Shown here piece by piece: positions 14,064 to 35,934 of a stretch of DNA of 63,272 nucleotides. The position numbers and the translations under genes were made by a program. Positions within the stretch are counted from its first letter, which is position 1, and the number at the start of each line of letters is the position of its first letter. Under the pieces are notes generated by a model. It searched no databases. It was not told where the DNA came from and saw only the letters and a list, made by a program, of their open reading frames with translations. Source of the stretch: Flavobacteriales bacterium (lineage in GTDB: Bacteria > Bacteroidota > Bacteroidia > Flavobacteriales_F > PHOS-HE28); contig JBDTNF010000140.1 in the NCBI GenBank assembly GCA_039933875.1, forward strand, positions 1-63,272, in the 5' to 3' direction.

Positions 14064-14066
14064 GCA

Positions 14067-19058: not shown

Positions 19059-19119
19059 CGCGTGCCATTTCAAGAAGGTCGTCCCACCAGTAGTGATACT
19101 AGGCTGGCCACGCACGTTC

Positions 19120-20919: not shown

Positions 20920-20954
20920 GCGGTCATCGCGCCCCGAGCACAACCCTGCACCCC

Positions 20955-22355: not shown

Positions 22356-22439
22356 GACGGTGGGCCCAGGCGGTACCCATGCTTTTTCCTCTTGGCTTCA
22401 ACGGCTAAGCGCTTGCGCTGGTTGCACGCGGGCAGGGTG

Positions 22440-23000: not shown

Positions 23001-23050
23001 AACAGGTGCTTGAACCTGGGGTGACAGGCAGTGCACCTGCCTTCGGAGGG

Positions 23051-23827
23051 TCACGCCCGCTCCAGACGGTCCTTCCACCGTTGGGCATCCGGCATGACCC
23101 GTCGCTGCAAGGCATGAAAGGCCTTGTTGTGGTAGGGGTGTACGAGGTGACACAACTCGTGCGTGATGACATAGTCGATCGCGCGAACGGGCATCGTGAT
23201 CAGATCAGGGTTCAGCAGCATCCGGCCCTGAGGTGTGCAACTCCCCCAGCGCTTGGCCATGCGTGTGATGCGCACAGGAGGCTCTTCGAGCTTGTGCCTC
23301 TTGAACAAGTTCAACGCTTCCTCCAGCCTTTCAGCGAATACGCGCTGAGCATGTGCTCGATACCAGGCGGCCACTAGCTGCCGCACCTGTTCCCGGTCGT
23401 TGCGTTCCGGTAGAGTCACCACCAGCTCACCGCCCTTCAATTTCACCGAGCGCTCTTTGCCCGACCGCACCTTCAGCACATAGCGCCTGCCTAGATAGCT
23501 GTGGGATTCGCCGGACACGTATTCGCGAGGCGGGGTGCGCGGGAGGAATTCCTCGAAATGCCGGAACTGCTTCAACAACCAACGCCCCTTCGCGACCACC
23601 TTCGCTTCGATCGTGGGCAATGCAGCGTTCATCGGTGCCACCACATGCACGCTCAGGTCCGGATGTACTTCGATGCCCAGCGTGCGGCGTTCGCTACGCC
23701 TGAGCGAGAATTCCAGCGTGCGCGATCCATACCGCACATTCAACGTCGTAGGCCGACCCGGTAGGTCGGCACCACGGGCGCCCTTCGGCGCCTCCTTCAC
23801 CACTCTCGCACCCTTCACCCCTTGCAC
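23051..23827 (-). CDS. DUF45/YgjP-like (M48-related) zinc metallopeptidase
   Basis: 258-aa ORF starting 4 nt after the hsdR stop. It has an HExxH motif in VITHELCHLVHPYHNKAFHAL, and its overall length and position match the YgjP-like proteins that commonly follow hsdR. Confidence 0.7.
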   Translation of the reverse strand: MQGVKGARVVKEAPKGARGADLPGRPTTLNVRYGSRTLEFSLRRSERRTLGIEVHPDLSVHVVAPMNAALPTIEAKVVAKGRWLLKQFRHFEEFLPRTPPREYVSGESHSYLGRRYVLKVRSGKERSVKLKGGELVVTLPERNDREQVRQLVAAWYRAHAQRVFAERLEEALNLFKRHKLEEPPVRITRMAKRWGSCTPQGRMLLNPDLITMPVRAIDYVITHELCHLVHPYHNKAFHALQRRVMPDAQRWKDRLERA

Positions 23828-23831
23828 TTTC

Positions 23832-26800
23832 TCAGTAATTGTGCTTCGCGCACTTCAGGCATTTCTCCAGGATCGCGTCGATCTCATCGAAGGTGAGCTC
23901 CGCGCCAAGGTCCTTGCGGTGCAGTAGCAGGTAGTCCTCAATCGCGTTCTCGATGCGCTTCTGCACGTCGATGTTGCGGTGCCAATCGCGGATGATGTGC
24001 CGCTCCACGATGGCGGCGATATCCATGCCCGCTTGTGCCAGCCGCGACCGGTCGAGGCCATCAGCGTGGTGTTCCTCCAACACGCTGGTGAGCGCACCGA
24101 AGAAAGCCCGTGCCTGGGGTGCTTCACGCAGTTGCTCGGGGATGCCCTCCAGATGCCCCTTCTCCAAGTCGTCGCGTGTGCCGAGGATCTTCTCCAGGTA
24201 TTCCTTCTCGCTGATGCGCCCGTCGTGGAAGGCCTTGATCGTATCCTCGATCAGGTCGCTGAACTTCTTGTAGAAGGCTTCGTCGCGCTCCAGGTTCTCG
24301 CTGATACTTTTCTTCATCTGGTGCGCGATGAAGTCGGCCTTGCTCGCGGGCGTCTTGCCGTACTGCTCCAGCGCGTCGCTCACCATCTGGCGGTCCATGA
24401 TGTTCACTTCGCCGGTGAGGTAGTCCACGCGTTCGGCTTGCACGTGCATGTCCAACAACTTGCGCACGCGCGGCTCATACTCCGCGTAGCTCACCACTTC
24501 GGCGTAGCGCTGTTGCACGCTGCGGCGCATGCCCTCGAAGCGCTTCAGTTCCTTCAGGTAGAAGGTGACCTGCTCGTTGTCGAACTCTTTGTAGAAGTCG
24601 TCGCTGCCGAGGGCGGTGTGCAGGGTGCGCGCATACGCTGACACGCGCCCGTAGAAGTCATCGCGAAGGTCTTTGGCAGCGAGGTGACGCTCCAGCGCTT
24701 CGGTGTCGTTCCTGTTCACGCCCTTGAACACGTCCCACACGTCGGCATGGCGCTGCGGCACCTTGCGCACTTCCTCGCGCATGTCGTGGACGGCGTTCGT
24801 GAGGTCGTTCTCGTCGAAGCCATCCAGCGCGCTGTAGCTGGTAAGCGCTTCGTCAAGGTCCCCGAGCAGGCCCACGTAGTCGATGATGTAGCCGAACTGC
24901 TTGCCCTCGAACAAGCGGTTCACACGGGCAATGGCCTGCAAGAGGTTGTGCTCTTTCAGCGGCCGCGCCAGGTAGAGCACAGTGTTGCGCGGACTGTCGA
25001 AGCCCGTGAGCAATTTGCTCACCACGATCATCACTTCCACTTCATCGCTCGCGGCTTTGAACTTCTCGATCATCCGCTCCTCGTAGCGCGCGGGATCGTT
25101 GCCGTGCTTCTCCATCAACTGCTTCCAGAAGGTGCGCGCTTCGTCGTTGGCTTCCTCCCACACATCCTCGTTGCCCTCGCGGCTATCGGGCGGTGTGAAG
25201 ACCACGGCGGCGTTCAGGCGCAGCTTCGGGTCGGGCTGGCTTTGGAAGTACTTGTAGTAGCGGATGGCGGTATCGATGCTCGGCGCTGCCAGTTGCGCTT
25301 TGAAGGGCGTGCCCTGCCACGAGCCGCAGAAGTGCTTGCTGATGTCGTGCGCGATCTCTTCCACCACCAGCTGGCTCTGGTAGAGCTTGCTGATGCGGCT
25401 GAACTTCTTCTTCAGGTCCTTCTGCGCCTCTTCGCTCAGCGGCGCGCTCAGGCGCTCGAAGCCCTTGTCGATAGCGGCCGCGTTCACGCTGAGCTTGGCG
25501 GCGCGGCCTTCGTAGAGCAGGGGCACCACGGCCTGGTCCTTCACGGCCTGGTCGATGGTGTAGGTGTGGATGAAGCCGCCGAATTTCCGCGCCGTGCTCT
25601 TCTCCTTCTTCATCAGCGGTGTGCCGGTGAAGCCGATGTAGCAGGCGTTGGGCAGCATGCGCTTCATCTGCTGGTGGCTCAGGCCGTACTGACTGCGGTG
25701 GCTCTCGTCCACCAGCACGAAGAGGTCGGGACTGGCATCGCTGAAGCCCACTTTGCGCGTGCCTGTCTCGAACTTGTCGATCACACTGGTGATCACTTCC
25801 ACGCCGCCGTCCTTCAGCAGTTCCACCAGGTGGTTGCCGCTGCTCGCCTTCTGCACGTTCTTGCCGCAGTTCAAGAAGGTCTTCCAGATCTGGCGGTCCA
25901 GGTCCACACGGTCGGTAACGATCACCACGCGCGGACGGGCGATGCCTTTCTCCAGCGCGAGCGCCTTGCTCAGCATCACCATGGTTAGGCTCTTGCCGCT
26001 GCCTTGCGTGTGCCAGATCACGCCGCCACGGCGTGAACCCTCGGTGTCCAAGCCGCGCACACGCGCCAGCGTTTCGCGCACGGCGAAGTATTGCTGGTAG
26101 CGCGCGACTTTCCGCTCCGGCCCATCGAACACGGTGTAGATGTAGGCCAGCTCCATGAGCCGCTCGGGGCGCAGCAGCGCGAAGAGCACGCGGTCCTGCT
26201 CGGTGGGCAGGCGGTCTTCGGCGGGGGTATCGTACTTGGTGCTCTTGAGCAAGCGCGTAACGGGCGCTTCGGTGTCCTCTTTCCAGTTGCCCCAGAAGCG
26301 CGCCTCGGTGCCGGTGGTGGCATAGCGCACCTCGTTGGGCTGCACGGCCAGCAACAGTTGCGCGTAGTGGAAGATGCGCGGCGCGCCCTCGTCCTTGCGC
26401 TGGTTGCGCAGGTGCTGGCTGATGGCCTCGGCGATGCTCAGGTTCTTGTCCCGCCGCTTGTTCTCCAGCACGGCGAAGGGAATACCGTTGACGAAGAGCA
26501 CAAGGTCCGGACGGCGTGTCTCTTTGATCCCCTCCACCACGAACTCATCGGCGATGTGGTAGTGGTTGTTCTGCGGGTTGGCCCAATCGATGTAGCGCAG
26601 CGTGTAGGCTTTCTGGTCGCCCTGCACGGTCTCGGTAAAGCTCTTGCCCAGGGTGAGCAGGTCGTACACCTTCTCGTTGGTGAGCACCACGTGCTGCTCG
26701 GGTACGTTCTTGAGCGCAGCGATGGCCTGCGCAATGGTGCCCCGGCTGAAGGGATACTGCTGCCCCTTGTACTCGAAGCGGTTGATGGCAGCCAGCCGCT

Positions 26801-26954
26801 CGGCCAATATCTCCTCCAGCAGCACACCGCTAAGGATGCCGTTGCGCTGCCGCTCGGCCTCCACAGGCGGTAGGTAGCGCCAGCCCAGCTTGCGTAGCAG
26901 GGCCAGCGCCGGTGCCTGGCTGTCGTGGAGTTCGGTGTAGTTGGGCGGGGTCAT
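23832..26954 (-). CDS. hsdR: type I restriction enzyme, R subunit
   Basis: 1040 aa. N-terminal PD-(D/E)xK nuclease motif (RPDLVLFVNGIPFAVLENKR). SF2 helicase motifs are present: HTQGSGKSLTMV (Walker A) and VLVDESHRSQ (motif II). Confidence 0.92.
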   Translation of the reverse strand: MTPPNYTELHDSQAPALALLRKLGWRYLPPVEAERQRNGILSGVLLEEILAERLAAINRFEYKGQQYPFSRGTIAQAIAALKNVPEQHVVLTNEKVYDLLTLGKSFTETVQGDQKAYTLRYIDWANPQNNHYHIADEFVVEGIKETRRPDLVLFVNGIPFAVLENKRRDKNLSIAEAISQHLRNQRKDEGAPRIFHYAQLLLAVQPNEVRYATTGTEARFWGNWKEDTEAPVTRLLKSTKYDTPAEDRLPTEQDRVLFALLRPERLMELAYIYTVFDGPERKVARYQQYFAVRETLARVRGLDTEGSRRGGVIWHTQGSGKSLTMVMLSKALALEKGIARPRVVIVTDRVDLDRQIWKTFLNCGKNVQKASSGNHLVELLKDGGVEVITSVIDKFETGTRKVGFSDASPDLFVLVDESHRSQYGLSHQQMKRMLPNACYIGFTGTPLMKKEKSTARKFGGFIHTYTIDQAVKDQAVVPLLYEGRAAKLSVNAAAIDKGFERLSAPLSEEAQKDLKKKFSRISKLYQSQLVVEEIAHDISKHFCGSWQGTPFKAQLAAPSIDTAIRYYKYFQSQPDPKLRLNAAVVFTPPDSREGNEDVWEEANDEARTFWKQLMEKHGNDPARYEERMIEKFKAASDEVEVMIVVSKLLTGFDSPRNTVLYLARPLKEHNLLQAIARVNRLFEGKQFGYIIDYVGLLGDLDEALTSYSALDGFDENDLTNAVHDMREEVRKVPQRHADVWDVFKGVNRNDTEALERHLAAKDLRDDFYGRVSAYARTLHTALGSDDFYKEFDNEQVTFYLKELKRFEGMRRSVQQRYAEVVSYAEYEPRVRKLLDMHVQAERVDYLTGEVNIMDRQMVSDALEQYGKTPASKADFIAHQMKKSISENLERDEAFYKKFSDLIEDTIKAFHDGRISEKEYLEKILGTRDDLEKGHLEGIPEQLREAPQARAFFGALTSVLEEHHADGLDRSRLAQAGMDIAAIVERHIIRDWHRNIDVQKRIENAIEDYLLLHRKDLGAELTFDEIDAILEKCLKCAKHNY

Positions 26955-26963
26955 CGAATGTCA

Positions 26964-27404
26964 CTAAACGGCGAGGCCCTTATGTCCAGGTCTGTGAGCA
27001 ACGGAAGGATGGTGCCATCTGCCTGTGATCTGGTACAATTCGTAGTTCAAGATCCAGCCGTGTGTCCATGGAACGATGGTGTCATACAAGTTGCAGCTCG
27101 TCTGCCATAGGAAGTCCTTGGGATAGTAAAGGCAGAGGCTGTTGTCGTACGGATACATGTGTATGTCGTCCGAGTACGCGATGTGCGGCGCCCGAATGAA
27201 GACCTTGGGTTTCGCGGGTGGTCTGTAAATGACTCGATACTTGAAAGGCGTTGAATATGGCGTGGGTTGGAACACACCGGTTGAAACCAAGCCGAACTGA
27301 TCGAGTCTGTTCTTCAAGAACGTATAGTGCCGCTCGAGCAGAACCTTCTCCCTCGCGGCGATGGCGAAGTAGTTGGGCCGTTGTGTGTAGTAGGAACTAG
27401 CCAC
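26964..27404 (-). CDS. small E2 (UBC)-like protein, probable CBASS type II-short regulator
   Basis: The preferred start is the GTG at 27404-27402, overlapping the CD-NTase TAG by 8 nt (5'-GTGGCTAG-3' on the minus strand, complement of 27404-27397). The track's 188-aa form starts at a TTG 134 nt inside the CD-NTase gene. The sequence FKYRVIYRPPAKPKVFIRAP...IHMYPYDNSLCLYYPKDFLW...IVPW mirrors the UBC pattern (PP.v.F...H.N....G.iCL..L...W). Confidence 0.55.
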   Translation of the reverse strand: MASSYYTQRPNYFAIAAREKVLLERHYTFLKNRLDQFGLVSTGVFQPTPYSTPFKYRVIYRPPAKPKVFIRAPHIAYSDDIHMYPYDNSLCLYYPKDFLWQTSCNLYDTIVPWTHGWILNYELYQITGRWHHPSVAHRPGHKGLAV

Positions 27405-28401
27405 CGAAATTGCGATTGGGTTTGTATGGTACTCCCTCCTTTGTGTTGACGTTGCCTGCTGGGTCGATACGAGCGGCACCAGCAACCGCCGCTTTGACCA
27501 TGGGCCGTAGCAGTGATTCGAGAAGGTCAACGTCCTTGTCTTCTCCTTCCGGGAACCGGTCGCCCAAGTGCTTCCGCCAGAGCTTGCTGGCCTTAAGCTG
27601 GTTCTTCTCAGCTACTGCTTGGGCCGCGTCCTCAGAGAACGTCTTTAGCGCGTCCCGGAATTTCGCCTTTTGATCAAGGTCAAGCTTCTTGGTCAGGTCA
27701 TCGAATGCCCATACCGGCATCTGGCAGGTACACTGCGGAGTTATCGTGGTGTACATCTGCCGCAGCAGATTAGCCAATGCCTTGTCATCCCGTTCGTCAG
27801 CCAGGAAGCGCTCGCAAGTCCACGTGGTAAGTGCAACGCCGCTGGGTGTTTTGAACGACCGTGCATCGCACCAGGCCTTGAGGTACTTGATCATTCGCTT
27901 CAACTGGCCAGCGCTATCGCTCTTTTGGTTGAACCATTCCCAAAAAGCCTTAGGGTCACTGTCTTGCCACCCCTCCTTGGTTGCTAGGTGTGGATGGGAG
28001 TCGGACGGGGTCTTGTAGTATACCGGAATGTCGATGTGGTAGTCCTTTGCATAAATGACCCGTATGCACTTGCTCCGGTGCTCAGGCTTCGTGCCGGTCC
28101 AATTTTCCACGGCGTCCCACACGTAGCCTTGGATAGTAGCCGGAGCCACCTCGGGTTTCTCCAAGAAGTATAGTCCGAGGTCCACGTCATAGGTGGCGTC
28201 TGACTCCTTCTGCACCATCGTCTTCATTTTGTATGAACCTTGGAGAGCGAAACGTGGTGTCGTAAGACCCTCCTTCTTCTTGAAGTAGTTCGTCAGGTGG
28301 TCCTGAAGGGCCATTCGTGAATCCTTGAGCTTTTCAAGACGGTTACCCGAGACTGTGATCTGATCGTTGAATGTGCCGAAGAGGCGGTTACAGTTGGCCA
28401 T
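27397..28401 (-). CDS. cGAS/DncV-like nucleotidyltransferase (CD-NTase) of a CBASS system
   Basis: 334 aa. The nucleotidyltransferase motifs are LQGSYKMKT (G-S), ATYDVDLGLYF (DxD) and YHIDIPVYY (third Asp). It sits directly downstream of a patatin effector gene. The C-terminus ends ...PNRNFGG. Confidence 0.8.
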   Translation of the reverse strand: MANCNRLFGTFNDQITVSGNRLEKLKDSRMALQDHLTNYFKKKEGLTTPRFALQGSYKMKTMVQKESDATYDVDLGLYFLEKPEVAPATIQGYVWDAVENWTGTKPEHRSKCIRVIYAKDYHIDIPVYYKTPSDSHPHLATKEGWQDSDPKAFWEWFNQKSDSAGQLKRMIKYLKAWCDARSFKTPSGVALTTWTCERFLADERDDKALANLLRQMYTTITPQCTCQMPVWAFDDLTKKLDLDQKAKFRDALKTFSEDAAQAVAEKNQLKASKLWRKHLGDRFPEGEDKDVDLLESLLRPMVKAAVAGAARIDPAGNVNTKEGVPYKPNRNFGG

Positions 28402-28405
28402 AGGC

Positions 28406-29488
28406 TTAGGGTGTTGGTTTTGTAGTCGGGCGAACAGGTGGGGTGTAGTCCCGGAAGTTGTTGTCGTCTATGAAAGTGGCAATCACCTTGGCGCCATAAG
28501 TTTGGAACGCTCGATGGCCGAGTTGCACAAGGGTCCTGATCTTCCGTTTGCCCTTTGTGTCGAGGGGCAATTTCAAATTAGACCCGAGGTCAACAGAGAT
28601 TCGCTCATAAGGGAAGATGTAGTTCTTCACGGCGCCCACACCACCCGATAGTATGTCGATGTTGAAGTGTATCGATTGGGCCTGTGCCTGCATCATAAGG
28701 TCAAGTACGCGCGCCTTACGCATCCAATAGAATCGCCCCCATGGCTTTGGGAACAAGCCCCAGACTATTCTTCGACGGCCTTCAGAGAAGGTGCTATGTC
28801 CAGTACCGATCGATAGCAGCCTGATTTCCTCCAGCTTATGCCCAAGTCCTCGGTGCGCTTCGGTTAGACCAATGAGCGATGGGTTGTTCGCGAAAATCCC
28901 ACCGTCAACCTTGAGGTCGAACGGTGTCTCTGCACCGGATTGCAAGTTCGCGTACGACGATGAATATGGATTGAAATAGGTGGGCGCAGCCGACGACGCC
29001 ATGGCTACCATGTAAGCCGGTATGTGAAGGTCGATGTGAAACTGCGGGTGGTGTGGCGTTTTGAATACTCTGGTTGTGGCAGCGAGCAGGTCATAGGCTG
29101 GTATGCAAACCCGGGTCTTAAGATCAATCAACCGAGGGTCCGTCTTGTCTTCGCCTTGGAATGTCTTCCGAACCAAAGCCTCCAATGCACGGCTCCTGTA
29201 CTTCGACCAGATCCATCCGAACGAACGCTTGCAGAAAATCGCACGCGCATTGTTCCGATAGAGGTCAACGATGGTCTGAGCAGGAATATCCAAAGCCAAG
29301 GCCAGAGCAATGATGCTCCCCGTTGAAGTACCACAGATGAGATCGAAGTGCTCCCGTAACCGAGGGGATTTTCCGTCCTGCTGCAAGCGGGCCTCCATCT
29401 CCGCCAAGAACTCGGCCGCTAGTATGCCCCGGATGCCTCCGCCATCAATCGACAATACCGTGAACTTCTTATCCGGCATGGTGCGCAA
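28406..29488 (-). CDS. capV: patatin-like phospholipase, CBASS effector (CapV-like)
   Basis: 360 aa. LSIDGGGIRGILAA (oxyanion hole), CGTSTGSII (GxSxG nucleophile) and KVDGGIFANNP (catalytic Asp-Gly-Gly). Confidence 0.85.
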   Translation of the reverse strand: MRTMPDKKFTVLSIDGGGIRGILAAEFLAEMEARLQQDGKSPRLREHFDLICGTSTGSIIALALALDIPAQTIVDLYRNNARAIFCKRSFGWIWSKYRSRALEALVRKTFQGEDKTDPRLIDLKTRVCIPAYDLLAATTRVFKTPHHPQFHIDLHIPAYMVAMASSAAPTYFNPYSSSYANLQSGAETPFDLKVDGGIFANNPSLIGLTEAHRGLGHKLEEIRLLSIGTGHSTFSEGRRRIVWGLFPKPWGRFYWMRKARVLDLMMQAQAQSIHFNIDILSGGVGAVKNYIFPYERISVDLGSNLKLPLDTKGKRKIRTLVQLGHRAFQTYGAKVIATFIDDNNFRDYTPPVRPTTKPTP

Positions 29489-30755
29489 TTGTTTTCACCC
29501 GCACCGCCCCCGTCAGCAACTGCTGCATCAAGCCGCGCTTCTGGGTGGTGATGTGGGTGAGTTGGTCTTCGAGCAAGGTGATCTCGTTGTCCATCGCTTC
29601 GAGCAGACGCGTGATCAGCGTCTGTTCCGCAGCAGGTGCGATGGGCAGTTCCATGTGCGCGAGTTGCGATGGATAGATATGTACCACGGAATGTCCTTGG
29701 CCGAGCTTCTTGCGCTGGGCGTCGGCGGTGGCGCTGCTCAGCGCGAACGAGAGGTACAGCGGATCAATGCCCTTCGGCCGAAGGATGATCACATCGCCAC
29801 CGGCGCATGCTGGACCATCGCCGAGGTACACGGCTGCCTTCCCGATCTCTTCAGCCGTTTCACCAGAACCAGCGAATAGCACATCGCCTTTGTAGATCGG
29901 TTGACTGGCCTCGGCGGTGCTGGGGTCGATGAACGAGTAGAACTTCTTGATGAGGACATGATGCACCGTGTACAGTTCCCCGTAGGTGACGCACGGCACG
30001 CCGCTTTCGCGCAGATCGTTCTTGGTGATGCCCTTGCCTTTCGAGAACGTACCGAGGTCGGCGAGCTTCATCCGCTTCCATGCGCCGGTATGTCCGTTCA
30101 ACCTCCGCTTCCCGCTGAGCAACTCTTGCATAAGCCCCTGCTTGCGGCGCTGCTTGGCGGCGATCAGCGCGCCCAGGGTGGTTATGGCTTTGTCCCAGGT
30201 GCCGAGGATGGCGGCGATGCGGCGTTGTTCAGGGAGAGTTGGGCTGGCAACAAACAGTGTAAGAATGTCGCCTCGCGAAACTCCCGGAATCATGTTCCCG
30301 CGCGAAAGCACTTCGATCTGCTCAGCCTTGCTGTTCAACAGGTAATACAGGAACAGGTCATCAAGGTCTTTCGCCACAGCCGCCATCAATTGCCGACCCA
30401 TGGAAACCTCGAGCATCTTCTGATAGAATATGGTCCCAGCACCAGACCCCTTTACAGTGATCAATGTCGAGTGTTGGGGCGCGATCGCTTGGCGCAGTAG
30501 TGTTCTCTTCTGTACCAGGTCCTCATGTTGGACAACATCAGTTGGCCCGGTGAAGTAGGCCATGCCATTTCCACCGAAAGAGTACTCACCCTTGTTCAAA
30601 TGGAATCCAGACACCAAGGCGATGTGAGCGCCCAACTTGCCAACCCCCCACTCCTCCGGCAACCACCCGAGCTTGGTGAGCTTGTAGCCCGGCCGCACGG
30701 CACCCTTCGACTTTGCGCTAAGCGTTGCTGCGATGACTACTTCACGCTTGGCCAT
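29469..30755 (-). CDS. hsdS: type I restriction enzyme, S (specificity) subunit with two TRDs
   Basis: 428 aa. Two target-recognition halves are each followed by a conserved helix (LPEQRRIAAILGTWDKAI...QGLMQELLSGK and AAEQTLITRLLEAMDNEI...RGLMQQLLTG). Confidence 0.88.
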   Translation of the reverse strand: MAKREVVIAATLSAKSKGAVRPGYKLTKLGWLPEEWGVGKLGAHIALVSGFHLNKGEYSFGGNGMAYFTGPTDVVQHEDLVQKRTLLRQAIAPQHSTLITVKGSGAGTIFYQKMLEVSMGRQLMAAVAKDLDDLFLYYLLNSKAEQIEVLSRGNMIPGVSRGDILTLFVASPTLPEQRRIAAILGTWDKAITTLGALIAAKQRRKQGLMQELLSGKRRLNGHTGAWKRMKLADLGTFSKGKGITKNDLRESGVPCVTYGELYTVHHVLIKKFYSFIDPSTAEASQPIYKGDVLFAGSGETAEEIGKAAVYLGDGPACAGGDVIILRPKGIDPLYLSFALSSATADAQRKKLGQGHSVVHIYPSQLAHMELPIAPAAEQTLITRLLEAMDNEITLLEDQLTHITTQKRGLMQQLLTGAVRVKTIAHHAG

Positions 30756-31545
30756 CGAGAATGCGTTTGGTTTGGCGGACCATGTTCACGAACAACTCCT
30801 CGCGTTCATTCAGGTCCATGCTGGACAGCGGCTTGCTCGGGGGGTTCAGTGCTTGGTACTGGTTGAGATCAGGGAATTCATCGAACAGACAGGGCTTCAG
30901 GATGAGCGGCAGGATGACGGCGCCTTCCTTCTCCGCTGCTGCTAACAAGGGCGGCAGTTCTTCACTGGCAATGAACTCCGACCCCAGGAAATCGGTGCTG
31001 ACCAGTGGGATGGCAACCTTGGTGTTCTTGATCGCCTTGCGGATCTCGTCCTTCCATTTGTCACCACCCTTGATGCGTTCGTCATCCCAGAGTTCAATTC
31101 CTGCTTTGAGCGGTTTGAAATGTCGTTGCACTTCGGTGAGCACGTCCTTATCGCGATGGCTATAGCTGATGAAGACGTTGGTCCTCGGTGCATCCGCCGT
31201 ATGGTATTTCTGATGCGCCACGATCGGAAGTGTTCCGATCTCTTGCCGCAGATAGAACAGGACGACTTCCGCCGCACCCTCAACCGGACAATCAGGTTTG
31301 GGCTCACCTCCATGCGCTTGATCGCGATGTGCGTTCAGCGCTTGGGAAACATCCTTCGTCAATTGGTCGAGGAAGATGGACTTCGCTGGGCCCGCATAGA
31401 AGTCCGCTAGTCTGATCTTTACCTTTTGGAATGCACGGGCAACTGAATGTGTATCCAGGTCTTGCAGTTCCTGTTCAGCGAAGGTGGTCGCCTCCCTACG
31501 GATGATCTCCTCATCTTTCAGGGTCAGTTCGGGCTCCTTGCTCAT
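30742..31545 (-). CDS. TIR-domain protein with an unrecognised N-terminal region of about 120 aa
   Basis: 267 aa. The C-terminal half NVFISYSHRDKDVLTEVQRHF...IELWDDERIKGGDKWKDEIRKAIKNTKVAIPLVSTDFLGSEFIASEEL is a typical bacterial TIR, including a candidate catalytic Glu. Its ATG overlaps the stop of the upstream gene (ATGA). Confidence 0.8.
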   Translation of the reverse strand: MSKEPELTLKDEEIIRREATTFAEQELQDLDTHSVARAFQKVKIRLADFYAGPAKSIFLDQLTKDVSQALNAHRDQAHGGEPKPDCPVEGAAEVVLFYLRQEIGTLPIVAHQKYHTADAPRTNVFISYSHRDKDVLTEVQRHFKPLKAGIELWDDERIKGGDKWKDEIRKAIKNTKVAIPLVSTDFLGSEFIASEELPPLLAAAEKEGAVILPLILKPCLFDEFPDLNQYQALNPPSKPLSSMDLNEREELFVNMVRQTKRILDGQA

Positions 31546-32318
31546 GGTGTGGTTATGGTTTCCAGTTCCAGCACCGCACCGGTATCGAAGCTCTTGTGCT
31601 CACCCTGCCGCACATAGCCCAACTGGTTGGTGAGCATGCGCGTGCGGCCGATGGTGAAGGCGGGCGTGTTGGTATGGTGGTGGCCATAGATCCACGCATC
31701 GGCGTTGCTGTCCGCGATCAGATCGTGCAGTTCCACGGCGAAGGCTTCGTTCAGCGCGTCGCCCTTGTACTGCGGAGGGTAGTGCATGAAGGTGGGCACG
31801 TGGTGGGTCATCACCACCGTAGGCCCGGCGAAGGGCTTCGCGAGTTCCGTCTTCAACCAGGCGAGGCTGGCTTCGTGCAACCGCGTGGTGTGCGCGGGCA
31901 GGAGCAGGATGCCGCCGTTGCGGATCTGGTGGTAGTCGTTCATGTCGCGCCGCACCGCGTGCTCGTTCATGTTACCGATGGATGTCCACAATGTGGTGCA
32001 GAGGATGCGTGCGCCACCTGCGAACACGGTGGTGTCGTTCACGAGACGAACGTTGTGCGCGATCTCCTCATCCACTGTTCCGCTGCGCTCGGTGATGTCG
32101 CCGCCGTAGTACTCGTGGTTGCCGGGTATCCACACCACCTGCTTGAAGTGCTTCCCCACGTAGCGGAAGAAGTCCATGTAACCGGGCAGCTTCTGGAAGG
32201 TGACGATATCCCCCGCCAGCAACAACACGTCCGCCTTGGGTTCCAAAGGGTGCGCGAGCAACCGCGCCCGGTTCTCCGGGAATTCGAGGTGCAGGTCGCT
32301 GGCGTATTGGGGGGTCAT
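31542..32318 (-). CDS. calcineurin-like metallophosphoesterase
   Basis: 258 aa. Metallophosphoesterase motifs appear in order: ASDLHLEF (DxH), LLLAGDIV (GD), IPGNHEYY (GNHE), VVMTHHVP (H) and IYGHHH (GH.H). Confidence 0.8.
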   Translation of the reverse strand: MTPQYASDLHLEFPENRARLLAHPLEPKADVLLLAGDIVTFQKLPGYMDFFRYVGKHFKQVVWIPGNHEYYGGDITERSGTVDEEIAHNVRLVNDTTVFAGGARILCTTLWTSIGNMNEHAVRRDMNDYHQIRNGGILLLPAHTTRLHEASLAWLKTELAKPFAGPTVVMTHHVPTFMHYPPQYKGDALNEAFAVELHDLIADSNADAWIYGHHHTNTPAFTIGRTRMLTNQLGYVRQGEHKSFDTGAVLELETITTP

Positions 32319-32365
32319 GGTGGGGTCGGATGGCTATCATATTGGTGATGCCACCGAAATGATGG

Positions 32366-33415
32366 TCAGGGTTTCTTCTTAGGCTTCACGGGCTTGGGGT
32401 CGTTGTCCTTGTCCGACTTTCCGCCGGTCAGCCGCTTCACCTCTTTATCGAAGTCGCTGATGTAGTCGCGGTCCTGCTGCACGCGGAACTTCTCGAACTC
32501 GCCCTCGGCCAGTTGCACAGCCACGTCGTGGCTCACCTTGCCGGCGTCCTTCAGCACGGTGTACTCGTTGAACTGCAGGAAGGCATCGAGCTTACCAGCC
32601 CAGTCCTTCATGTTCATGGTGATGCTGCGTTTCGCCTGGTTCTCGGCATAGTCCAGGTACATGCTGACGATGCGGTCCAGTTCCGCGATCTCCTCCACGT
32701 TCAGGTAGTTCTTGGCCACGGTCACGTCGCTCTTGAGCACTTTGCCCGCAGGCGCGTTCTTCCAGGTGGTAAGGCCCATGTGCGGCAGTTCGGCTTTGGC
32801 GCGTTCGGCGATCAGCTCGGCGGCGGTGTGGCGGTGGATGGCCCAATGCAGCTTGTTCTGCACGGTCTTGTAGAAGAGGCGGGTCACCTCATCGCTGGCG
32901 TCGTAGTCCCGGCTGCACTCCTTGTAGATGTCGGTGATCTTCTCATAGAAGCGTCGTTCGCTCGCGCGGATCTCGCGGATGCGTTCGAGCAGTTCCTCGA
33001 AGTAGTCCTGTCCGAACTGCTTGCCTTGTTTCAATCGGGCATCGTCCAGCACGAAGCCCTTGATCATATACTCCTTCAGGGTGTTGGTGGCCCAGATGCG
33101 GAACTTGGTGGCGCGCTGGCTGTTCACGCGGTAGCCCACGGCGATGATGGCGTCCAGGTTGTACACCTCCACCTCGCGGCGCACTTCGCGCCTGCCTTCC
33201 TGCTGAACCATTAGAATTTTTCTAATAGTTGCTTCCTCCTGCAACTCAGCGGTTTGGAAGATCTGTTTGAGGTGGTAGTTCACTGTGGGGATCTCCACAT
33301 CGAACAGCTCGGCGAGCTTCTTCTGGGTGAGCCAGAAGGTTTCGCTCTCGAAGAAGACCTCGATGCGCACGTCGCCCTCCGGCGTGGTGTAGAAGATGAT
33401 CTCGTTCTCGCTCAT
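32366..33415 (-). CDS. RhuM-family protein (type I R-M-associated, function unknown)
   Basis: 349 aa. N-terminus IIFYTTPEGDVRIEVFFESETFWLTQKKLAELFDV...TVNYHLKQIF....YNLDAIIAVGYRVNSQRATKFRIWAT matches the RhuM family signature as I remember it. Confidence 0.7.
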   Translation of the reverse strand: MSENEIIFYTTPEGDVRIEVFFESETFWLTQKKLAELFDVEIPTVNYHLKQIFQTAELQEEATIRKILMVQQEGRREVRREVEVYNLDAIIAVGYRVNSQRATKFRIWATNTLKEYMIKGFVLDDARLKQGKQFGQDYFEELLERIREIRASERRFYEKITDIYKECSRDYDASDEVTRLFYKTVQNKLHWAIHRHTAAELIAERAKAELPHMGLTTWKNAPAGKVLKSDVTVAKNYLNVEEIAELDRIVSMYLDYAENQAKRSITMNMKDWAGKLDAFLQFNEYTVLKDAGKVSHDVAVQLAEGEFEKFRVQQDRDYISDFDKEVKRLTGGKSDKDNDPKPVKPKKKP

Positions 33416-33418
33416 GGC

Positions 33419-34945
33419 TCACTTCGTCAACAGGCCGAGTTCCTTCAGGTACTTGTCCATCTCCCCACGCACGTTCACTAGTTCGCCTTCCAGTCGGTCG
33501 ATCTCCTGCTGCGTGGCGGCGATGTCCACCGGTGCCTCCTCCTCGAAGGTGTCCACGTAGCGCGGTATGTTCAGGTTGAACTCGTTCTGCTCGATCTCGG
33601 CGAGCGTGGCCACATGGCTGTACTTCTCTGCTTCGGCCTTGGTGCGGTAGGTCTCCACCACACGGGCGATGTCCTGTTCGCGCAGGCGGTTCTGCTTCTT
33701 GCCAGCATCGTAGTCGTTGCTGGCGTCGATGAAAAGCACCGAGGTATTCGGGCCCTTCGCCTTGTTGAAGAGCAGGATGGCGGCCGGGATGCCGGTGCCG
33801 AAGAAGAGGTTGCTGGGCAGGCCGATCACGGCCTCGAGCAGATTCTCGCGTACCAGCGCTTCGCGGATGCGGCCTTCGGCACCGCCACGGAAGAGCACCC
33901 CATGCGGCACGATCACACCTACGCGACCGGTGGGCAAAGTGGTGTCGATCATGTGCAGGATGAAGGCGTAGTCTCCTTTGCTCTTCGGCGGTATGCCGCG
34001 AACGAAGCGCTTGTGCTGGTCGGCCTCGGCGTTCTCAGCACCCCACTTGTCCAGGCTGAACGGCGGGTTCGCCACCACCACATCGAACTTCATCAGCTCA
34101 TGCCCCTCGCGCAGTTTGGGGTTGTTGATGGTGTCGCCCCACTCGATGTCGGCGCTGTCCATCTCATGCAGGAACATGTTCATCTTGGCCAGCGCCCATG
34201 TGTCGCCGTTGCTGTCCTGTCCGTAGAGGGCAAAGTCGCGCGAGGGTTTGCCGCTCTTATCGGTGACGTGTTCTGCCACGGTGATGAGCAAACTGCCGCT
34301 GCCGCAAGTGGGATCACAAATGCGCGCACCGGCTTTCGGGGCAACGAGCCGCGCAAGCAGTTCGCTCACTTCATGCGGTGTGTAAAATTCCCCGCCCTTC
34401 TTGCCGGCTCCTGAGGCGAAGCGTTCGATGAGGTACATGTATGCGTTGCCGATCACGTCCTCCTTCTTCTCGTAGTAGGAAGGACGGAAGTTGAGTTCAT
34501 CGGACGCGAAATCCTCCAGAAGGTTCTTCAGTCGGCGGTTGCGGTCCTTGGTCTGGCCCAGCTTCTCGCTGTTGAAGCTGATGTTGCGAAAAACGCCATC
34601 GAGCTTGGCGAGGTTCTGGTCCTCGATCTTGGCCAGCGCCTTGTCGATCTCCTCGCCGATGTTGTCCGCGTTGCGCTTGGCGTAGATGTCGCCGAAGGTG
34701 CAGCCATCGGGCAGCACGAAACGCTCGCGGCTCATCTTGCGCTTCACCAGTTCGGTCTGGTGTCCGAGTTCGCGGTGTACGTCATCGAGCTTCTCGCCCC
34801 ACACATCGCTGAGGTACTTCAGGAACATGAAGACGAGGATGAAGTTCTTGTACTCGCTGCTGTCGAAGGCACCACGGAAGGTGTCGCAGGCGGCCCAGAG
34901 CTTGGCATTGATCTGGTCTTGGTTGGGGGCCATCTTGATCTTCAT
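33419..34945 (-). CDS. hsdM: type I restriction enzyme, M subunit (N6-adenine DNA methyltransferase)
   Basis: 508 aa. HsdM N-terminal domain (LWAACDTFRG...), SAM-binding GEFYTPHEVSELLARLV...ICDPTCGSGSLL, and catalytic VVANPPFS. Confidence 0.92.
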   Translation of the reverse strand: MKIKMAPNQDQINAKLWAACDTFRGAFDSSEYKNFILVFMFLKYLSDVWGEKLDDVHRELGHQTELVKRKMSRERFVLPDGCTFGDIYAKRNADNIGEEIDKALAKIEDQNLAKLDGVFRNISFNSEKLGQTKDRNRRLKNLLEDFASDELNFRPSYYEKKEDVIGNAYMYLIERFASGAGKKGGEFYTPHEVSELLARLVAPKAGARICDPTCGSGSLLITVAEHVTDKSGKPSRDFALYGQDSNGDTWALAKMNMFLHEMDSADIEWGDTINNPKLREGHELMKFDVVVANPPFSLDKWGAENAEADQHKRFVRGIPPKSKGDYAFILHMIDTTLPTGRVGVIVPHGVLFRGGAEGRIREALVRENLLEAVIGLPSNLFFGTGIPAAILLFNKAKGPNTSVLFIDASNDYDAGKKQNRLREQDIARVVETYRTKAEAEKYSHVATLAEIEQNEFNLNIPRYVDTFEEEAPVDIAATQQEIDRLEGELVNVRGEMDKYLKELGLLTK

Positions 34946-35232
34946 CGGGTGGCGTTTATGAGTGCGGTGAATTCAGCACATTTCTTTTCTGCGTCGAGGA
35001 GCACCTGTTGTGACTCCGAAACACCATCGGTAAGAAGCCGCAGCACTTCGCCTTGCCATTTCTCGATCGCTTGGCGGATGATGTTTAGCCGTTGTTCGCC
35101 GTTCTCAATCTGCTGTAGCTCCTTGGTCAACTCGCTCTTTCGCTGGCTGAAGGCTGACCTCTGCTGCTGCAAAGCACTGAAGGCCCCTTTGATCTGGTCC
35201 TGTATGCTTCTCTTTTTATCTTCTGTCATCAT
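34942..35232 (-). CDS. small coiled-coil hypothetical protein
   Basis: 96-aa ORF rich in heptad-like Q/E/K/L sequence. It has 4-nt overlaps with both neighbours (half-hsdS upstream, hsdM downstream), which supports translation within the operon. Confidence 0.5.
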   Translation of the reverse strand: MMTEDKKRSIQDQIKGAFSALQQQRSAFSQRKSELTKELQQIENGEQRLNIIRQAIEKWQGEVLRLLTDGVSESQQVLLDAEKKCAEFTALINATR

Positions 35233-35918
35233 GTGAATGTGCGTGTTGTGGTCATGAGAATGCGGTCTACGAGCGCAGCTCGCCTGCGAGCTATCGTGGC
35301 GCGAATGCTCTGCTCACGAAGCGAAAGCTGATGCACCACCGCGATGAGCCGTTGCTGATCGAGAGGCGGAAGCGGCACACTGATGCCCTCGACCACCGGC
35401 TTGGTGATGTTGGGGATGTAGGTGCCGGCCATGTTCTGTTGAAGGTATTCCTGCACTGGCTTCTGGTTGATCCACCAAGCGAGGTAGTGCGGGTCCACCT
35501 TGGCGGGGTCGGGCCGAAGGACAAAGAAGGCCGAGGCGGCCACCGCTTTTTGGTCCATGTCGTAGACCACGGCGCGGTTGTTCGCGCCCTTGGCAACAAA
35601 GAGGACATCTCCTTTGGCCAGGAAGTGTTGGGGGCCGATATCTTTGCCTTGGACGCGAGCAATTCCCCCTTCATGAATACCGAAATGCGCCCCGTTGAGG
35701 TCCTTCATCTGGATTACAGCCACCGTTCCGGAGGCGTCGTTCACCACCCGCTCACGGAAGGAAAATCCAGACCGGACATGGCCTTCAATGATAACTGTGC
35801 GAATGGTATGCCTATCCATATGAATTACAGTAAAGACATTCTGAGCGTGCAAGTGTACAACAATTCTCAGAACTCGCATCGCGGGGTAGGATGAAAATAA
35901 TCTGTCAGCAAATTCCAC
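35229..35918 (-). CDS. single-TRD HsdS-like specificity protein (half-size S subunit)
   Basis: 229-aa ORF. One TRD (GDVLFVAKGANNRAVVYD...ASAFFVLRP) is followed by one conserved helix (LPPLDQQRLIAVVHQLSLREQSI...RAALVDRILM). An alternative ATG at 35819 would leave a 115-bp divergent promoter region. Confidence 0.65.
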   Translation of the reverse strand: MEFADRLFSSYPAMRVLRIVVHLHAQNVFTVIHMDRHTIRTVIIEGHVRSGFSFRERVVNDASGTVAVIQMKDLNGAHFGIHEGGIARVQGKDIGPQHFLAKGDVLFVAKGANNRAVVYDMDQKAVAASAFFVLRPDPAKVDPHYLAWWINQKPVQEYLQQNMAGTYIPNITKPVVEGISVPLPPLDQQRLIAVVHQLSLREQSIRATIARRRAALVDRILMTTTRTFT

Positions 35919-35934
35919 CTTCTACCTTCGCCGC

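What the first reader, a model, noticed from the sequence alone, without database searches (positions are those of the whole stretch)
23051..35918. One 12.9-kb overlapping-gene operon interleaves a type I R-M system with three other immunity-type modules
Seen in sequence: twelve same-strand ORFs run from 35918 to 23051 with almost no intergenic space.
- 4-nt overlaps at 35229-35232 and 34942-34945.
- ATGA overlap at 31542-31545.
- 14-nt overlap at 30742-30755.
- 20-nt overlap at 29469-29488.
- 8-nt overlap at 27397-27404.
- Every other junction has fewer than 10 untranslated nt, except the 47-nt gap (32319-32365) between the rhuM stop and the metallophosphoesterase start.

The order is half-hsdS, 96-aa coiled coil, hsdM, rhuM, metallophosphoesterase, TIR, hsdS, capV, CD-NTase, E2-like, hsdR, DUF45 protease. 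The R-M subunits are therefore physically separated by other genes: the RhuM gene plus a TIR module between M and S, and a complete CBASS between S and R.

Established knowledge: type I hsd loci are known hosts for embedded defence genes (for example the prrC anticodon nuclease inside the EcoprrI locus), and defence genes cluster in islands.

Inference: co-transcription and possibly functional coupling, such as backup abortive infection when restriction is inhibited. No integrase, transposase or tRNA was seen at either border, so I make no mobile-element call.
Basis: partly seen in the sequence, partly recalled or inferred. Interest (0 to 1): 0.7.

Follow-up and report, generated by a model that had tools for sequence, protein, structure and literature searches.

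The report
Type I restriction operon carrying embedded defence genes
A bacterial DNA-restriction operon has other anti-virus genes wedged between its own genes, including a complete CBASS system and a TIR enzyme; this is a rich example of an already published pattern, not a new kind of system.

Summary
Twelve minus-strand ORFs run from 35918 to 23051, and every overlap and gap is as listed. Only three start codons need small corrections. Profile searches confirm each gene call.

The order is half-HsdS, a 96-aa helical protein, HsdM, RhuM (PADLOC candidate PDC-S05), a metallophosphoesterase (MPE), a TIR protein, HsdS, CapV, CD-NTase, E2, HsdR and a YgjP/DUF45 peptidase. CapV, CD-NTase and E2 form a complete E2-only type II CBASS.

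Eleven or more related Bacteroidota loci keep the same backbone: half-HsdS, HsdM, (RhuM), HsdS, HsdR, YgjP. They carry different cargo at the same three positions, including Pycsar, other CBASS, PDC-S34, DUF3800, PDC-M04, multi-TIR and KilA-N. DNA homology breaks sharply at the slot edges.

A locus with 92%-identical HsdR has different cargo. A locus with 62%-identical HsdR has the same CBASS. Cargo is therefore exchangeable and probably autonomous.

MPE and TIR are separable, not an obligate pair. Co-transcription is plausible but untested. No data here support dependence of the cargo on the R-M enzyme.

The phenomenon is published: PrrC, TgvAB, DarTG2 and "guilt-by-embedding" (Payne 2024). 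This is a new member of a known kind, of modest interest.

The parts
35820..35934 (.). Only sizeable non-coding stretch upstream (about 115 nt). It is shared with the divergent cation-efflux gene and is the probable promoter region of the operon.
   Evidence: Sequence; cation-efflux gene at 35935-36834. Inferred. No promoter consensus was detected, and the region is not conserved in relatives.
35229..35819 (-). Half-size HsdS: one target-recognition domain plus the conserved PLPPLxxQ helix. It is a constant first gene of this hsd lineage. The ORF is open up to 35918.
   Evidence: Pfam Methylase_S 3e-07; PADLOC Specificity_I 3e-19; PDB HsdS 5ybb/3okg 3e-12. Present upstream of hsdM in 13 loci, with identity that tracks hsdM identity.
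34942..35232 (-). cc96, a 96-aa helical protein of unknown function in 'slot 0' between the half-HsdS gene and hsdM.
   Evidence: No family hit. AF2 model has a 65-residue helix plus a 22-residue helix, pLDDT 85. The same position holds an unrelated 101/107-aa GIY-YIG-like protein (judged by eye from the alignment) in L001 and L032, and nothing in L002.
33419..34945 (-). hsdM, the type I methyltransferase.
   Evidence: N6_Mtase 2e-108, HsdM_N 1e-28; NPPF at residue 293; 62-89% identical in relatives.
32366..33415 (-). RhuM-family protein (PADLOC candidate PDC-S05). It is a semi-constant passenger directly after hsdM.
   Evidence: Virulence_RhuM 4e-114; PDC-S05 3e-157. Present after hsdM in most related loci. 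Replaced by a Bro-N protein in L035.
32319..32365 (-). 47-nt gap, the only internal non-coding stretch longer than 9 nt.
   Evidence: DNA homology to L001/L002 stops at 32423 and homology to L002 resumes at 32319, so this is a cassette border.
31542..32318 (-). Calcineurin-like metallophosphoesterase (MPE). It is a semi-resident accessory of this hsd sub-lineage.
   Evidence: Metallophos 4e-17. All five metal-binding motifs are visible in the sequence. Weak similarity to Rv0805/Icc/CpdA phosphodiesterases. GC3 is 0.85, like the backbone. It is 64-90% identical in L002, L016, L023, L026, L032 and L035.
30742..31545 (-). TIR protein: an N-terminal four-helix domain (residues 9-103) plus a TIR domain (123-263). 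Probable NAD+-consuming effector.
   Evidence: TIR_2 3e-15; ThsB profile 1e-17. AF2 pLDDT 82. Foldseek matches AbTir and SARM1 TIR. E196 is invariant in 36 homologues. GC3 is 0.65.
29469..30755 (-). Full-length hsdS with two target-recognition domains.
   Evidence: Methylase_S in two stretches, 1e-21; Specificity_I 1e-64. Only its conserved N-terminal, central and C-terminal segments align at DNA level with L001 and L004.
28406..29479 (-). CapV, the patatin-like phospholipase effector of CBASS.
   Evidence: CBASS phospholipase effector 1e-89; NCBIfam CBASS_lipase 9e-76, above cut-off; DGGGIRG, GTSTGS and DGG motifs.
27397..28401 (-). CD-NTase, the CBASS cyclase.
   Evidence: PADLOC cyclase 9e-111; NCBIfam cGAS 3e-62, above cut-off; PDB 7ljo 9e-67. 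GS, DVD and D motifs present; C-terminus ends ...NFGG.
26964..27404 (-). E2-like CBASS regulator (E2-only, 'short' type II).
   Evidence: PADLOC E2 1e-44; PDB 8hsb_B (E2 of the SmCdnG-E2 complex) 8e-06. The L032 homologue is 69% identical and carries Pfam E2-CBASS.
23832..26954 (-). hsdR, the restriction/translocase subunit.
   Evidence: HSDR_N, SWI2_SNF2, T1R_D3 and C-terminal domains; REase_I 1e-202. Full-length homologues are 64-92% identical. DNA homology to L001 restarts one base after the ATG, at 26953.
23051..23827 (-). YgjP/DUF45 zinc metallopeptidase, the constant last gene of this hsd lineage.
   Evidence: YgjP-like 8e-55; HELCH motif. Found directly after hsdR in every related locus that reaches that far.

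Best explanation
This is a chromosomal type I restriction-modification operon from a Bacteroidota genome.

Its lineage has a fixed backbone: half-HsdS, HsdM, HsdS, HsdR and a YgjP peptidase. RhuM is usually present, and MPE often is. The lineage habitually carries exchangeable defence cargo at three fixed positions:
- slot 0, between the half-HsdS gene and hsdM;
- slot A, between hsdM/rhuM and hsdS;
- slot B, between hsdS and hsdR.

In this window slot 0 holds a 96-aa helical protein of unknown role. Slot A holds RhuM, MPE and a TIR protein. Slot B holds a complete E2-only type II CBASS (CapV, CD-NTase, E2).

Shown here: the gene identities, intact catalytic motifs, the conserved backbone, the variable cargo, and the sharp homology breakpoints at the slot borders.

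Inferred:
1. The twelve genes are expressed mainly from one promoter in 35820-35934, with translational coupling at the overlaps.
2. The modules act autonomously as layers. The R-M enzyme cuts unmethylated DNA. CBASS makes a cyclic nucleotide that activates the CapV phospholipase and kills the infected cell. The TIR protein depletes NAD+ or makes an NAD-derived product.
3. Cargo turns over by homologous recombination between hsd loci. The conserved hsdS segments, the rhuM/hsdM 3' part and the hsdR 5' end serve as anchors, which explains the absence of any integrase.

Embedding therefore gives co-inheritance and co-expression, not enzymatic dependence.
For: - Gene calls.
- Junctions.
- Backbone conserved with different cargo: L001 (HsdR 92%; 207-aa unknown protein and PDC-S34); L002 (84%; 210-aa protein + MPE, and DUF3800); L006/7/9/10 (Pycsar, PDC-S16, PDC-M04); L011 (a Cap4-type CBASS, and multi-TIR); L013 and L032 (capV-CDN-E2); L023/L026 (MPE-TIR with RES/DUF3800/PDC-M04B); L035 (BroN-MPE-KilA-N).
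- DNA homology to L001/L002 covers 34945-32423, three short conserved hsdS segments, and 26953-23056 only.
- Cargo history differs from backbone history. TIR is 73-78% identical where HsdR is 47%. CBASS is shared with a 62% HsdR relative but absent from the 92% and 84% relatives.
- GC3 is 0.83-0.88 in hsdM, rhuM, MPE and hsdR, against 0.62-0.70 in cc96, TIR, capV, CDN and E2.
- Cargo families occur outside hsd loci.
- No terminator-like site exceeds chance, and none lies between genes.
- Flanks are housekeeping and type IX secretion genes, with no tRNA.
- Published precedent for embedding, same orientation (96.7%) and a single regulated promoter: 10.1101/2024.01.29.577857 and PMC12255303.
Against: - No transcript data exist, and the promoter scan does not cover Bacteroidota promoters.
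- From general knowledge (no tool result here), classical type I systems transcribe hsdR from its own promoter. Flavobacteriaceae relatives have an AT-rich spacer with a repeated ATTCCCCAAAA motif before hsdR. An internal promoter inside the E2 gene or in the 47-nt gap therefore cannot be excluded.
- CBASS in L032 has diverged about as much as the backbone. Some cargo is thus stably co-inherited rather than freshly swapped.
- The functions of RhuM, MPE, cc96 and YgjP are untested anywhere, to my knowledge. One of them could link the R-M enzyme to the cargo.
Confidence: 0.75

Rival explanations
1. Guard-type functional coupling, as in EcoprrI-PrrC. One or more embedded modules (RhuM, MPE, TIR or CBASS) would be held inactive by the HsdMSR complex and released when a phage anti-restriction protein disables it. 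This would give back-up abortive infection.
For: - Genes are tightly interleaved with translational overlaps.
- RhuM sits directly after hsdM in most relatives, and MPE tracks the backbone in identity and GC3. These two behave more like accessories than like free cargo.
- PrrC is a real precedent and is almost exclusively embedded in type I R-M loci.
Against: - No PrrC-like protein is present.
- TIR and CBASS cargo is swapped between near-identical backbones and is found alone elsewhere.
- CBASS has its own sensor-synthase and effector.
- No test of physical interaction is available.
Confidence: 0.12
2. A gene cluster but not a single operon. Two or more transcription units would exist, for example half-hsdS to rhuM, MPE to E2, and hsdR to ygjP, driven by internal promoters inside coding sequence or in the 47-nt gap.
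For: - From general knowledge (no tool result here), classical hsd loci use separate promoters for hsdMS and hsdR.
- Relatives have long AT-rich spacers with a repeated motif before hsdR.
- Gaps of 84-133 nt follow rhuM in L026 and L032.
- The 47-nt gap coincides with a cassette border.
Against: - Only 9 nt separate E2 from hsdR here.
- Six junctions overlap.
- There is no excess of promoter-like or terminator-like sites, although the scan is not suited to this phylum.
Confidence: 0.25
3. A decaying or chimeric locus: pseudogenised remnants, or a metagenomic mis-assembly that joins unrelated pieces.
For: Degraded versions of this architecture exist. L016/L017 carry an hsdM-rhuM fusion ORF and hsdS fragments.
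Against: - All twelve ORFs are full length relative to homologues, with catalytic motifs intact.
- Independent assemblies show the same order.
Confidence: 0.03

Closest known systems
Defence genes 'embedded' in type I R-M, BREX, DISARM and Hma loci ('guilt-by-embedding', Payne et al. 2024, bioRxiv 10.1101/2024.01.29.577857)
   Same: - Foreign defence genes sit between hsd genes, on the same strand.
- Cargo includes known systems and PADLOC PDC candidates. RhuM here is PDC-S05; relatives carry PDC-S34, PDC-S16 and PDC-M04.
- Co-regulation has been proposed for such loci.
   Different: Three insertion positions are filled at once here, one of them with a complete CBASS. This report adds locus-level breakpoints and evidence that cargo history differs from backbone history in one Bacteroidota hsd lineage.
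EPEC RRDM island: RptR-HsdM-HsdS-DarTG2-HsdR (PMC12255303)
   Same: A defence system sits between hsdS and hsdR. The authors treat that island as one promoter-controlled unit and call the hsdS-hsdR site a likely recombination hotspot.
   Different: - No RptR-like small repressor was found here.
- cc96 is a long coiled coil, not a four-helix DNA binder, and has no PDB sequence match.
- The cargo is CBASS, not DarTG.
Vibrio cholerae VPI-2 type I R-M with embedded TgvAB (10.1101/2024.04.04.588119)
   Same: An autonomous second defence system lies inside a type I R-M cluster. In that case the embedded genes alone gave the phage protection.
   Different: That cargo is a GmrSD-like type IV restriction system. 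Here the cargo is abortive-infection type (CBASS, TIR).
EcoprrI-PrrC anticodon nuclease
   Same: A gene embedded in an hsd locus.
   Different: PrrC is functionally coupled to the R-M enzyme. No PrrC homologue and no evidence of coupling were found here.
E2-only ('short') type II CBASS, e.g. Serratia marcescens CdnG-E2 (PDB 8hsb)
   Same: - CD-NTase ending in Gly-Gly, plus a stand-alone E2 with no E1 or JAB.
- The E2 matches 8hsb_B.
- The effector is a CapV phospholipase.
   Different: The CD-NTase is closest to PDB 7ljo (9e-67) and only weakly similar to SmCdnG (1e-05). The system is embedded between hsdS and hsdR.
Thoeris
   Same: The TIR domain matches ThsB profiles (1e-17).
   Different: No ThsA-type effector (SIR2/SLOG or Macro) is present. 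The neighbouring gene is a metallophosphoesterase that is separable from the TIR gene.

Membership tests
Type I restriction-modification system | HsdM with HsdM_N and N6_Mtase domains and the NPPF catalytic motif | tested here: met
   (NPPF at residue 293).
Type I restriction-modification system | HsdS with two target-recognition domains and conserved helical regions | tested here: met
   Two Methylase_S stretches; Specificity_I 1e-64 over residues 31-422. Conserved segments align with relatives.
Type I restriction-modification system | HsdR with an N-terminal nuclease domain, SF2 motor and C-terminal domain | tested here: met
   GSGKS and TGTP motifs. The DEAH box was not found by my simple pattern.
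Type I restriction-modification system | Sequence-specific methylation and ATP-dependent restriction activity | not testable with these tools
   Needs methylome data or a restriction assay.
CBASS type II, E2-only ('short') | CD-NTase with catalytic GS / DxD / D residues | tested here: met
   PADLOC cyclase 9e-111; NCBIfam cGAS above cut-off; motifs visible in the sequence.
CBASS type II, E2-only ('short') | A cyclic-nucleotide-activated effector encoded next to the cyclase | tested here: met
   CapV patatin; NCBIfam CBASS_lipase 255 bits against a cut-off of 200; GxSxG and DGG motifs.
CBASS type II, E2-only ('short') | A stand-alone E2-like protein with no E1 or JAB, and a CD-NTase with a C-terminal glycine | tested here: met
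   E2 1e-44; PDB 8hsb_B match; CD-NTase ends ...NFGG. There is no room for further ORFs between E2 and hsdR.
Thoeris | A ThsB TIR protein together with a ThsA effector (SIR2/SLOG or Macro/TM) | tested here: not met
   The TIR matches ThsB profiles, but no ThsA-like protein is in the operon. The TIR family also occurs alone.
Embedded defence cargo in a host defence system (guilt-by-embedding) | Non-system genes lie between genes of one multi-gene defence system, on the same strand | tested here: met
Embedded defence cargo in a host defence system (guilt-by-embedding) | Cargo differs among homologous host loci and also occurs outside them | tested here: met
PrrC-type R-M-coupled abortive infection | An ABC-ATPase/anticodon-nuclease protein homologous to PrrC | tested here: not met
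   No PrrC hit for any of the twelve proteins in PADLOC.
PrrC-type R-M-coupled abortive infection | The embedded protein binds HsdMSR, is silenced by it, and is triggered by anti-restriction factors | not testable with these tools
   Needs pull-down and genetic experiments.
Mobile genetic element (integron, transposon, ICE, prophage) | Integrase/transposase, flanking repeats or a tRNA target | tested here: not met
   No tRNA. Flanking genes are a cation-efflux transporter, CotH, a LytTR regulator and type IX secretion cargo. No long terminal repeats.

The most novel reading that the evidence does not exclude
This Bacteroidota hsd lineage could be a dedicated, integrase-free cassette platform. 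Under this reading the conserved hsdS helices, the hsdR start and the rhuM/hsdM 3' end serve as recombination anchors that shuffle whole defence systems between strains. The constant non-R-M genes (vertically evolving half-HsdS, RhuM, MPE, YgjP peptidase) would form a sensing or regulatory layer that links the state of the restriction enzyme to the cargo, in a PrrC-like way.
Probability: 0.12. Interest if true: 0.6.

Novelty: new member of a known kind. Interest (0 to 1): 0.3.

Why it matters
The locus is a compact natural example of layered immunity. It combines DNA restriction, a cyclic-nucleotide suicide system, a TIR enzyme and several untested candidates under what may be one promoter.

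The family of related loci gives a ready-made comparison set. It can be used to ask how whole defence systems are swapped without integrases.

It also helps to choose untested candidates for phage assays: RhuM/PDC-S05, the metallophosphoesterase, the four-helix-TIR protein, the 96-aa helical protein and the YgjP peptidase.

It does not change current understanding. Embedding in type I R-M loci is already documented.

Tried and rejected
1. CD-NTase/E2 frameshift or fusion. The E2 reading frame stays open upstream of GTG 27404 and matched a cyclase-E2 fusion profile. I rejected the idea. The CD-NTase ORF ends in the expected ...NFGG, and the L032 homologue has the same 146-aa E2 with the same 8-nt overlap.
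2. MPE+TIR as a conserved two-gene system. Rejected as obligate. MPE occurs without TIR in four loci, TIR occurs without MPE in two, and their GC3 values differ (0.85 against 0.65).
3. Phase-variable hsdS shufflon between the half-HsdS gene and hsdS. No long direct or inverted repeats link them. The two are only 26% identical.
4. cc96 as an RptR-like repressor. It has no sequence match to any PDB entry. The model is a long coiled coil, not a four-helix DNA binder. No homologue was found in related loci.
5. A conserved promoter or operator upstream of the operon. Upstream regions of four loci do not align. The Bacteroidetes -7 motif TAnnTTTG is not enriched.
6. A conserved cassette-border motif (attC-like) at the slot B edges. 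None was seen in the window's group. Only the coding hsdS 3' end (LMQQLLTG) and the hsdR start are shared.
7. The N-terminal domain of the TIR protein fused to other effectors. It is found almost only with TIR, so it gives no clue to the sensed signal.
8. Literature searches for TIR plus metallophosphoesterase, RhuM in defence, and DUF45 with hsdR gave nothing usable.
9. Exact-match lookup of the window's HsdR found no record.

Full report
**1. Observation**

I recomputed all eleven junctions.
- ATGA overlaps lie at 35229-35232, 34942-34945 and 31542-31545.
- There is a 14-nt overlap at 30742-30755 and an 8-nt overlap at 27397-27404.
- The overlap at 29469-29488 is 20 nt, or 11 nt if capV uses ATG 29479.
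- The gaps are 3, 4, 9 and 4 nt, plus the 47-nt gap at 32319-32365.

Three starts need correction.
- The first ORF probably starts at ATG 35819. GTG 35918 lies 16 nt from the divergent cation-efflux gene at 35935. Profile alignments start near residues 38-48 of the long ORF, and homologues are 195-201 aa.
- capV probably starts at ATG 29479.
- E2 starts at GTG 27404. That gives 146 aa, matching the L032 homologue in both length and overlap.

**2. Gene identities**

Pfam, PADLOC and NCBIfam confirm every call.

| Gene | Main evidence |
|---|---|
| half-HsdS | Specificity_I 3e-19; PDB HsdS 3e-12, with the PLPPLxxQ helix |
| HsdM | N6_Mtase 2e-108; NPPF motif |
| RhuM | 4e-114; PADLOC PDC-S05 3e-157 |
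| Metallophosphoesterase (MPE) | 4e-17; all five metal motifs visible |
| TIR | TIR_2 3e-15; ThsB profile 1e-17 |
| HsdS | 1e-64, two target-recognition domains |
| CapV | 1e-89; NCBIfam CBASS_lipase above cut-off; GTSTGS and DGG motifs |
| CD-NTase | 9e-111; PDB 7ljo 9e-67; ends ...NFGG |
| E2 | 1e-44; PDB 8hsb_B, the E2 of the SmCdnG-E2 complex |
| HsdR | REase_I 1e-202 |
| YgjP/DUF45 | 8e-55; HELCH motif |

The 96-aa ORF has no family. A single-sequence AlphaFold model gives one 65-residue helix and one 22-residue helix (pLDDT 85). CapV, CD-NTase and E2, with no E1 or JAB, form a complete E2-only ('short') type II CBASS.

**3. Setting**

The flanks encode a cation-efflux transporter, a CotH protein, a LytTR response regulator, TPR histidine kinases, PKD/type IX secretion cargo, purD and a carboxyltransferase. 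There is no tRNA, Rfam hit, integrase or transposase.

Three things point to a Bacteroidota chromosome: the type IX secretion domains, the absence of Shine-Dalgarno sequences upstream of the genes, and the HsdR relatives. The window GC is 59%. The operon is an isolated defence locus, not part of a larger island.

**4. Related loci**

HsdR homologues at 92% (L001), 84% (L002/L003/L005), 74% (L004), about 64% (Flavobacteriaceae, L006-L015), 62% (L032) and 47% identity (L023-L028) were retrieved with their neighbourhoods. BLAST of the window's proteins against these loci shows a constant backbone: half-HsdS, HsdM, usually RhuM, HsdS, HsdR, YgjP.

Between the backbone genes the content differs.

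| Locus | Slot A (hsdM/rhuM to hsdS) | Slot B (hsdS to hsdR) |
|---|---|---|
| L001 | 207-aa unknown protein | PDC-S34 HAD-like protein |
| L002 | 210-aa unknown protein + MPE | DUF3800 protein + 55-aa ORF |
| L006/7/9/10 | 116-aa unknown protein (L006, L007); none (L009, L010) | Pycsar (PycTM + PycC), PDC-S16; PDC-M04A/B in L007/L010 |
| L008/14/15 | none (L008, L015); 425-aa PLD-like protein (L014) | Schlafen/AlbA-type 552-aa protein |
| L011 | Cap4-type CBASS + PLD-like protein | several ThsB-like TIR genes (also in L015) |
| L013, L032 | 117-aa unknown ORF (L013); MPE (L032) | capV-CDN-E2 |
| L023/L026 | MPE-TIR | RES/DUF3800-type or DUF3800/PDC-M04B cargo |
| L035 | Bro-N, MPE, KilA-N | DUF3800 + 173-aa protein |

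A third position ('slot 0', between the half-HsdS gene and hsdM) also varies.
- The window has cc96 there.
- L001 and L032 have a 101/107-aa protein. The two are 51% identical to each other and unrelated to cc96. Its GIY...YIG...R...E...N pattern looks GIY-YIG-like by eye.
- L002 has nothing there.

**5. Breakpoints and histories**

At DNA level, the window aligns with L001 over these stretches only:
- 34945-32423 (hsdM + rhuM, 86%);
- three short conserved hsdS segments (30696-30643, 30238-30100, 29595-29509);
- 26953-23056, which starts one base after the hsdR ATG.

With L002 it additionally aligns over MPE (32319-31584, 80%) and the second half of hsdS. The slots therefore have sharp edges at conserved hsd sequence.

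Cargo history is not backbone history.
- The 92% and 84% HsdR relatives lack CBASS.
- The 62% relative L032 has the same CBASS at 56-69% identity, about as diverged as its backbone.
- L013 has it at 41-43%.
- The TIR protein is 73-78% identical in loci whose HsdR is only 47% identical.

Third-position GC content separates two classes. It is 0.83-0.88 in hsdM, rhuM, MPE and hsdR, and 0.62-0.70 in cc96, TIR, capV, CDN and E2. L032 shows the same split.

Together these results fit exchange of cassettes by homologous recombination between hsd loci, with no need for an integrase. That mechanism is inferred, not shown.

**6. MPE and TIR**

The data do not support an obligate pair.
- MPE (64-90% identical) occurs without TIR in L002, L016/17, L032 and L035. 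It tracks the backbone in both identity and GC3.
- Weaker MPE relatives (52-54%) sit alone in a non-defence setting (L033) or a mobile-element setting (L034).
- The TIR family is a conserved two-domain protein. The N-terminal four-helix domain has invariant H73, R74, H78, G80, C86 and E89. The TIR domain has invariant E196.
- TIR relatives at 57-58% identity stand alone, next to a HaeIII-type R-M system in Leeuwenhoekiella and next to Abi_C/resolvase genes in Mucilaginibacter.
- The AF2 model (pLDDT 82) matches the NAD+-consuming TIR domains of AbTir and SARM1.
- The N-terminal domain is found almost only fused to TIR.

I therefore read the TIR gene as a probable single-gene NADase effector. 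I read MPE as a separate, semi-resident accessory. MPE has weak similarity to cyclic-nucleotide phosphodiesterases (Rv0805, Icc, CpdA), and its role is unknown. The system is not Thoeris, because no ThsA is present.

**7. Constant accessory genes**

Half-HsdS identity rises and falls with HsdM identity across 13 loci. For example it is 84-85% at 95% HsdM identity, 62-73% at 86-91%, and 33-39% at about 70%. This is vertical co-evolution. The full HsdS instead shows patchy domain replacement.

The half-HsdS is only 26% identical to either half of the full HsdS, so it may add a second, palindromic specificity. That is an inference. YgjP follows hsdR in every locus that reaches that far, so it belongs to the backbone.

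**8. Operon and coupling claims**

Spacing and overlaps make co-transcription and translational coupling likely. The only long non-coding stretch upstream is 35820-35934. Terminator-like sites do not exceed chance, and none lies between genes.

However, the promoter scan uses a sigma-70 consensus, which is not suited to this phylum. The Bacteroidetes -7 motif is not enriched, and upstream regions are not conserved. Flavobacteriaceae relatives have an AT-rich spacer with a doubled ATTCCCCAAAA motif before hsdR, which may be a separate hsdR promoter in those loci. I therefore rate a single transcript as likely but unproven.

I found no evidence that CBASS or TIR depends on HsdMSR. The exchangeability of cargo and its occurrence outside hsd loci argue for autonomy. 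A guard role for RhuM or MPE cannot be excluded.

**9. Comparison with the literature**

- Payne et al. (10.1101/2024.01.29.577857) report that type I R-M, BREX, DISARM and Hma loci frequently carry embedded defence genes. The embedded genes are in the same orientation in 96.7% of cases, and the authors suggest co-regulation. The PADLOC PDC families matched here appear to be their embedded candidates (my inference; the preprint's main text describes 'PDCs' but does not name individual families).
- The EPEC RptR-HsdM-HsdS-DarTG2-HsdR island is controlled from one repressed promoter. Its authors call the hsdS-hsdR site a likely recombination hotspot (PMC12255303).
- V. cholerae VPI-2 carries TgvAB inside its type I R-M cluster, and the embedded genes act alone (10.1101/2024.04.04.588119).
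- PrrC is the classical coupled case.

The present locus is thus a well-filled new example of a known arrangement.

**10. Verdict**

Novelty: a new member of a known kind. Interest is 0.3. The locus is a good experimental model and a source of untested candidates, but it would not surprise a specialist.

Noticed in passing
window 22528-22995 (minus strand), between the YgjP stop (23051) and the fn3 gene start (22355): An array of six or more degenerate repeats lies here, with cores exactly 84 nt apart at 22548, 22632, 22716, 22800, 22884 and 22968. The core is ATGTTGGGAC-N9-GTCCCyTCA, a short GGGAC/GTCCC hairpin, and it occurs nowhere else in the window. The ORFs that cover it (22405-23172 minus; 21834-22895 plus) have no family hits and atypical GC3, so it is probably non-coding. 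The RNA fold z-score is -2.45. It may be a set of 3' stabiliser or terminator hairpins, or a REP-like array; this is unexplained.
   Followed up: partly
L006, L007, L009, L010, L014, L015: about 20-70 nt upstream of hsdR: Flavobacteriaceae relatives carry a doubled ATTCCCCAAAA motif in an AT-rich spacer just before hsdR. This may be an operator or promoter for separate hsdR expression. The motif is absent from the window, where only 9 nt precede hsdR.
   Followed up: no
window 35229-35819 and homologues in 12 loci: The half-size HsdS upstream of hsdM is a constant feature of this hsd lineage. It evolves in step with HsdM and shows no sign of domain swapping, unlike the full HsdS. This suggests a fixed second specificity or a structural role.
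   Followed up: partly
L001:4270-4575 and L032:831-1154: A small protein of about 100 aa occupies the half-hsdS/hsdM position in two relatives. The two copies are 51% identical to each other. The protein looks GIY-YIG-like by eye (GIYIFTG...YIGQT...R...E...N). The window has the unrelated cc96 in that position.
   Followed up: partly
L016/L017 (JGI metagenome contigs): This is a degraded version of the same operon. A 438-aa ORF joins the N-terminal 302 residues of HsdM (90% identical) to the C-terminal 146 residues of RhuM. An intact MPE (88%) and hsdS fragments follow.
   Followed up: no
window 30742-31545, residues 73-89 of the TIR protein: The N-terminal four-helix domain carries an invariant H73-R74...H78-G80...C86...E89 cluster across 36 homologues. 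This may be a metal or ligand site that gates the TIR domain.
   Followed up: no
window 12033-18417 and 19051-21710: Three tandem TPR-histidine-kinase genes (His_kinase/LytS type) are followed by a beta-propeller protein and a LytTR response regulator, just downstream of large PKD/type IX secretion proteins (6798-12005). This is unrelated to the finding.
   Followed up: no
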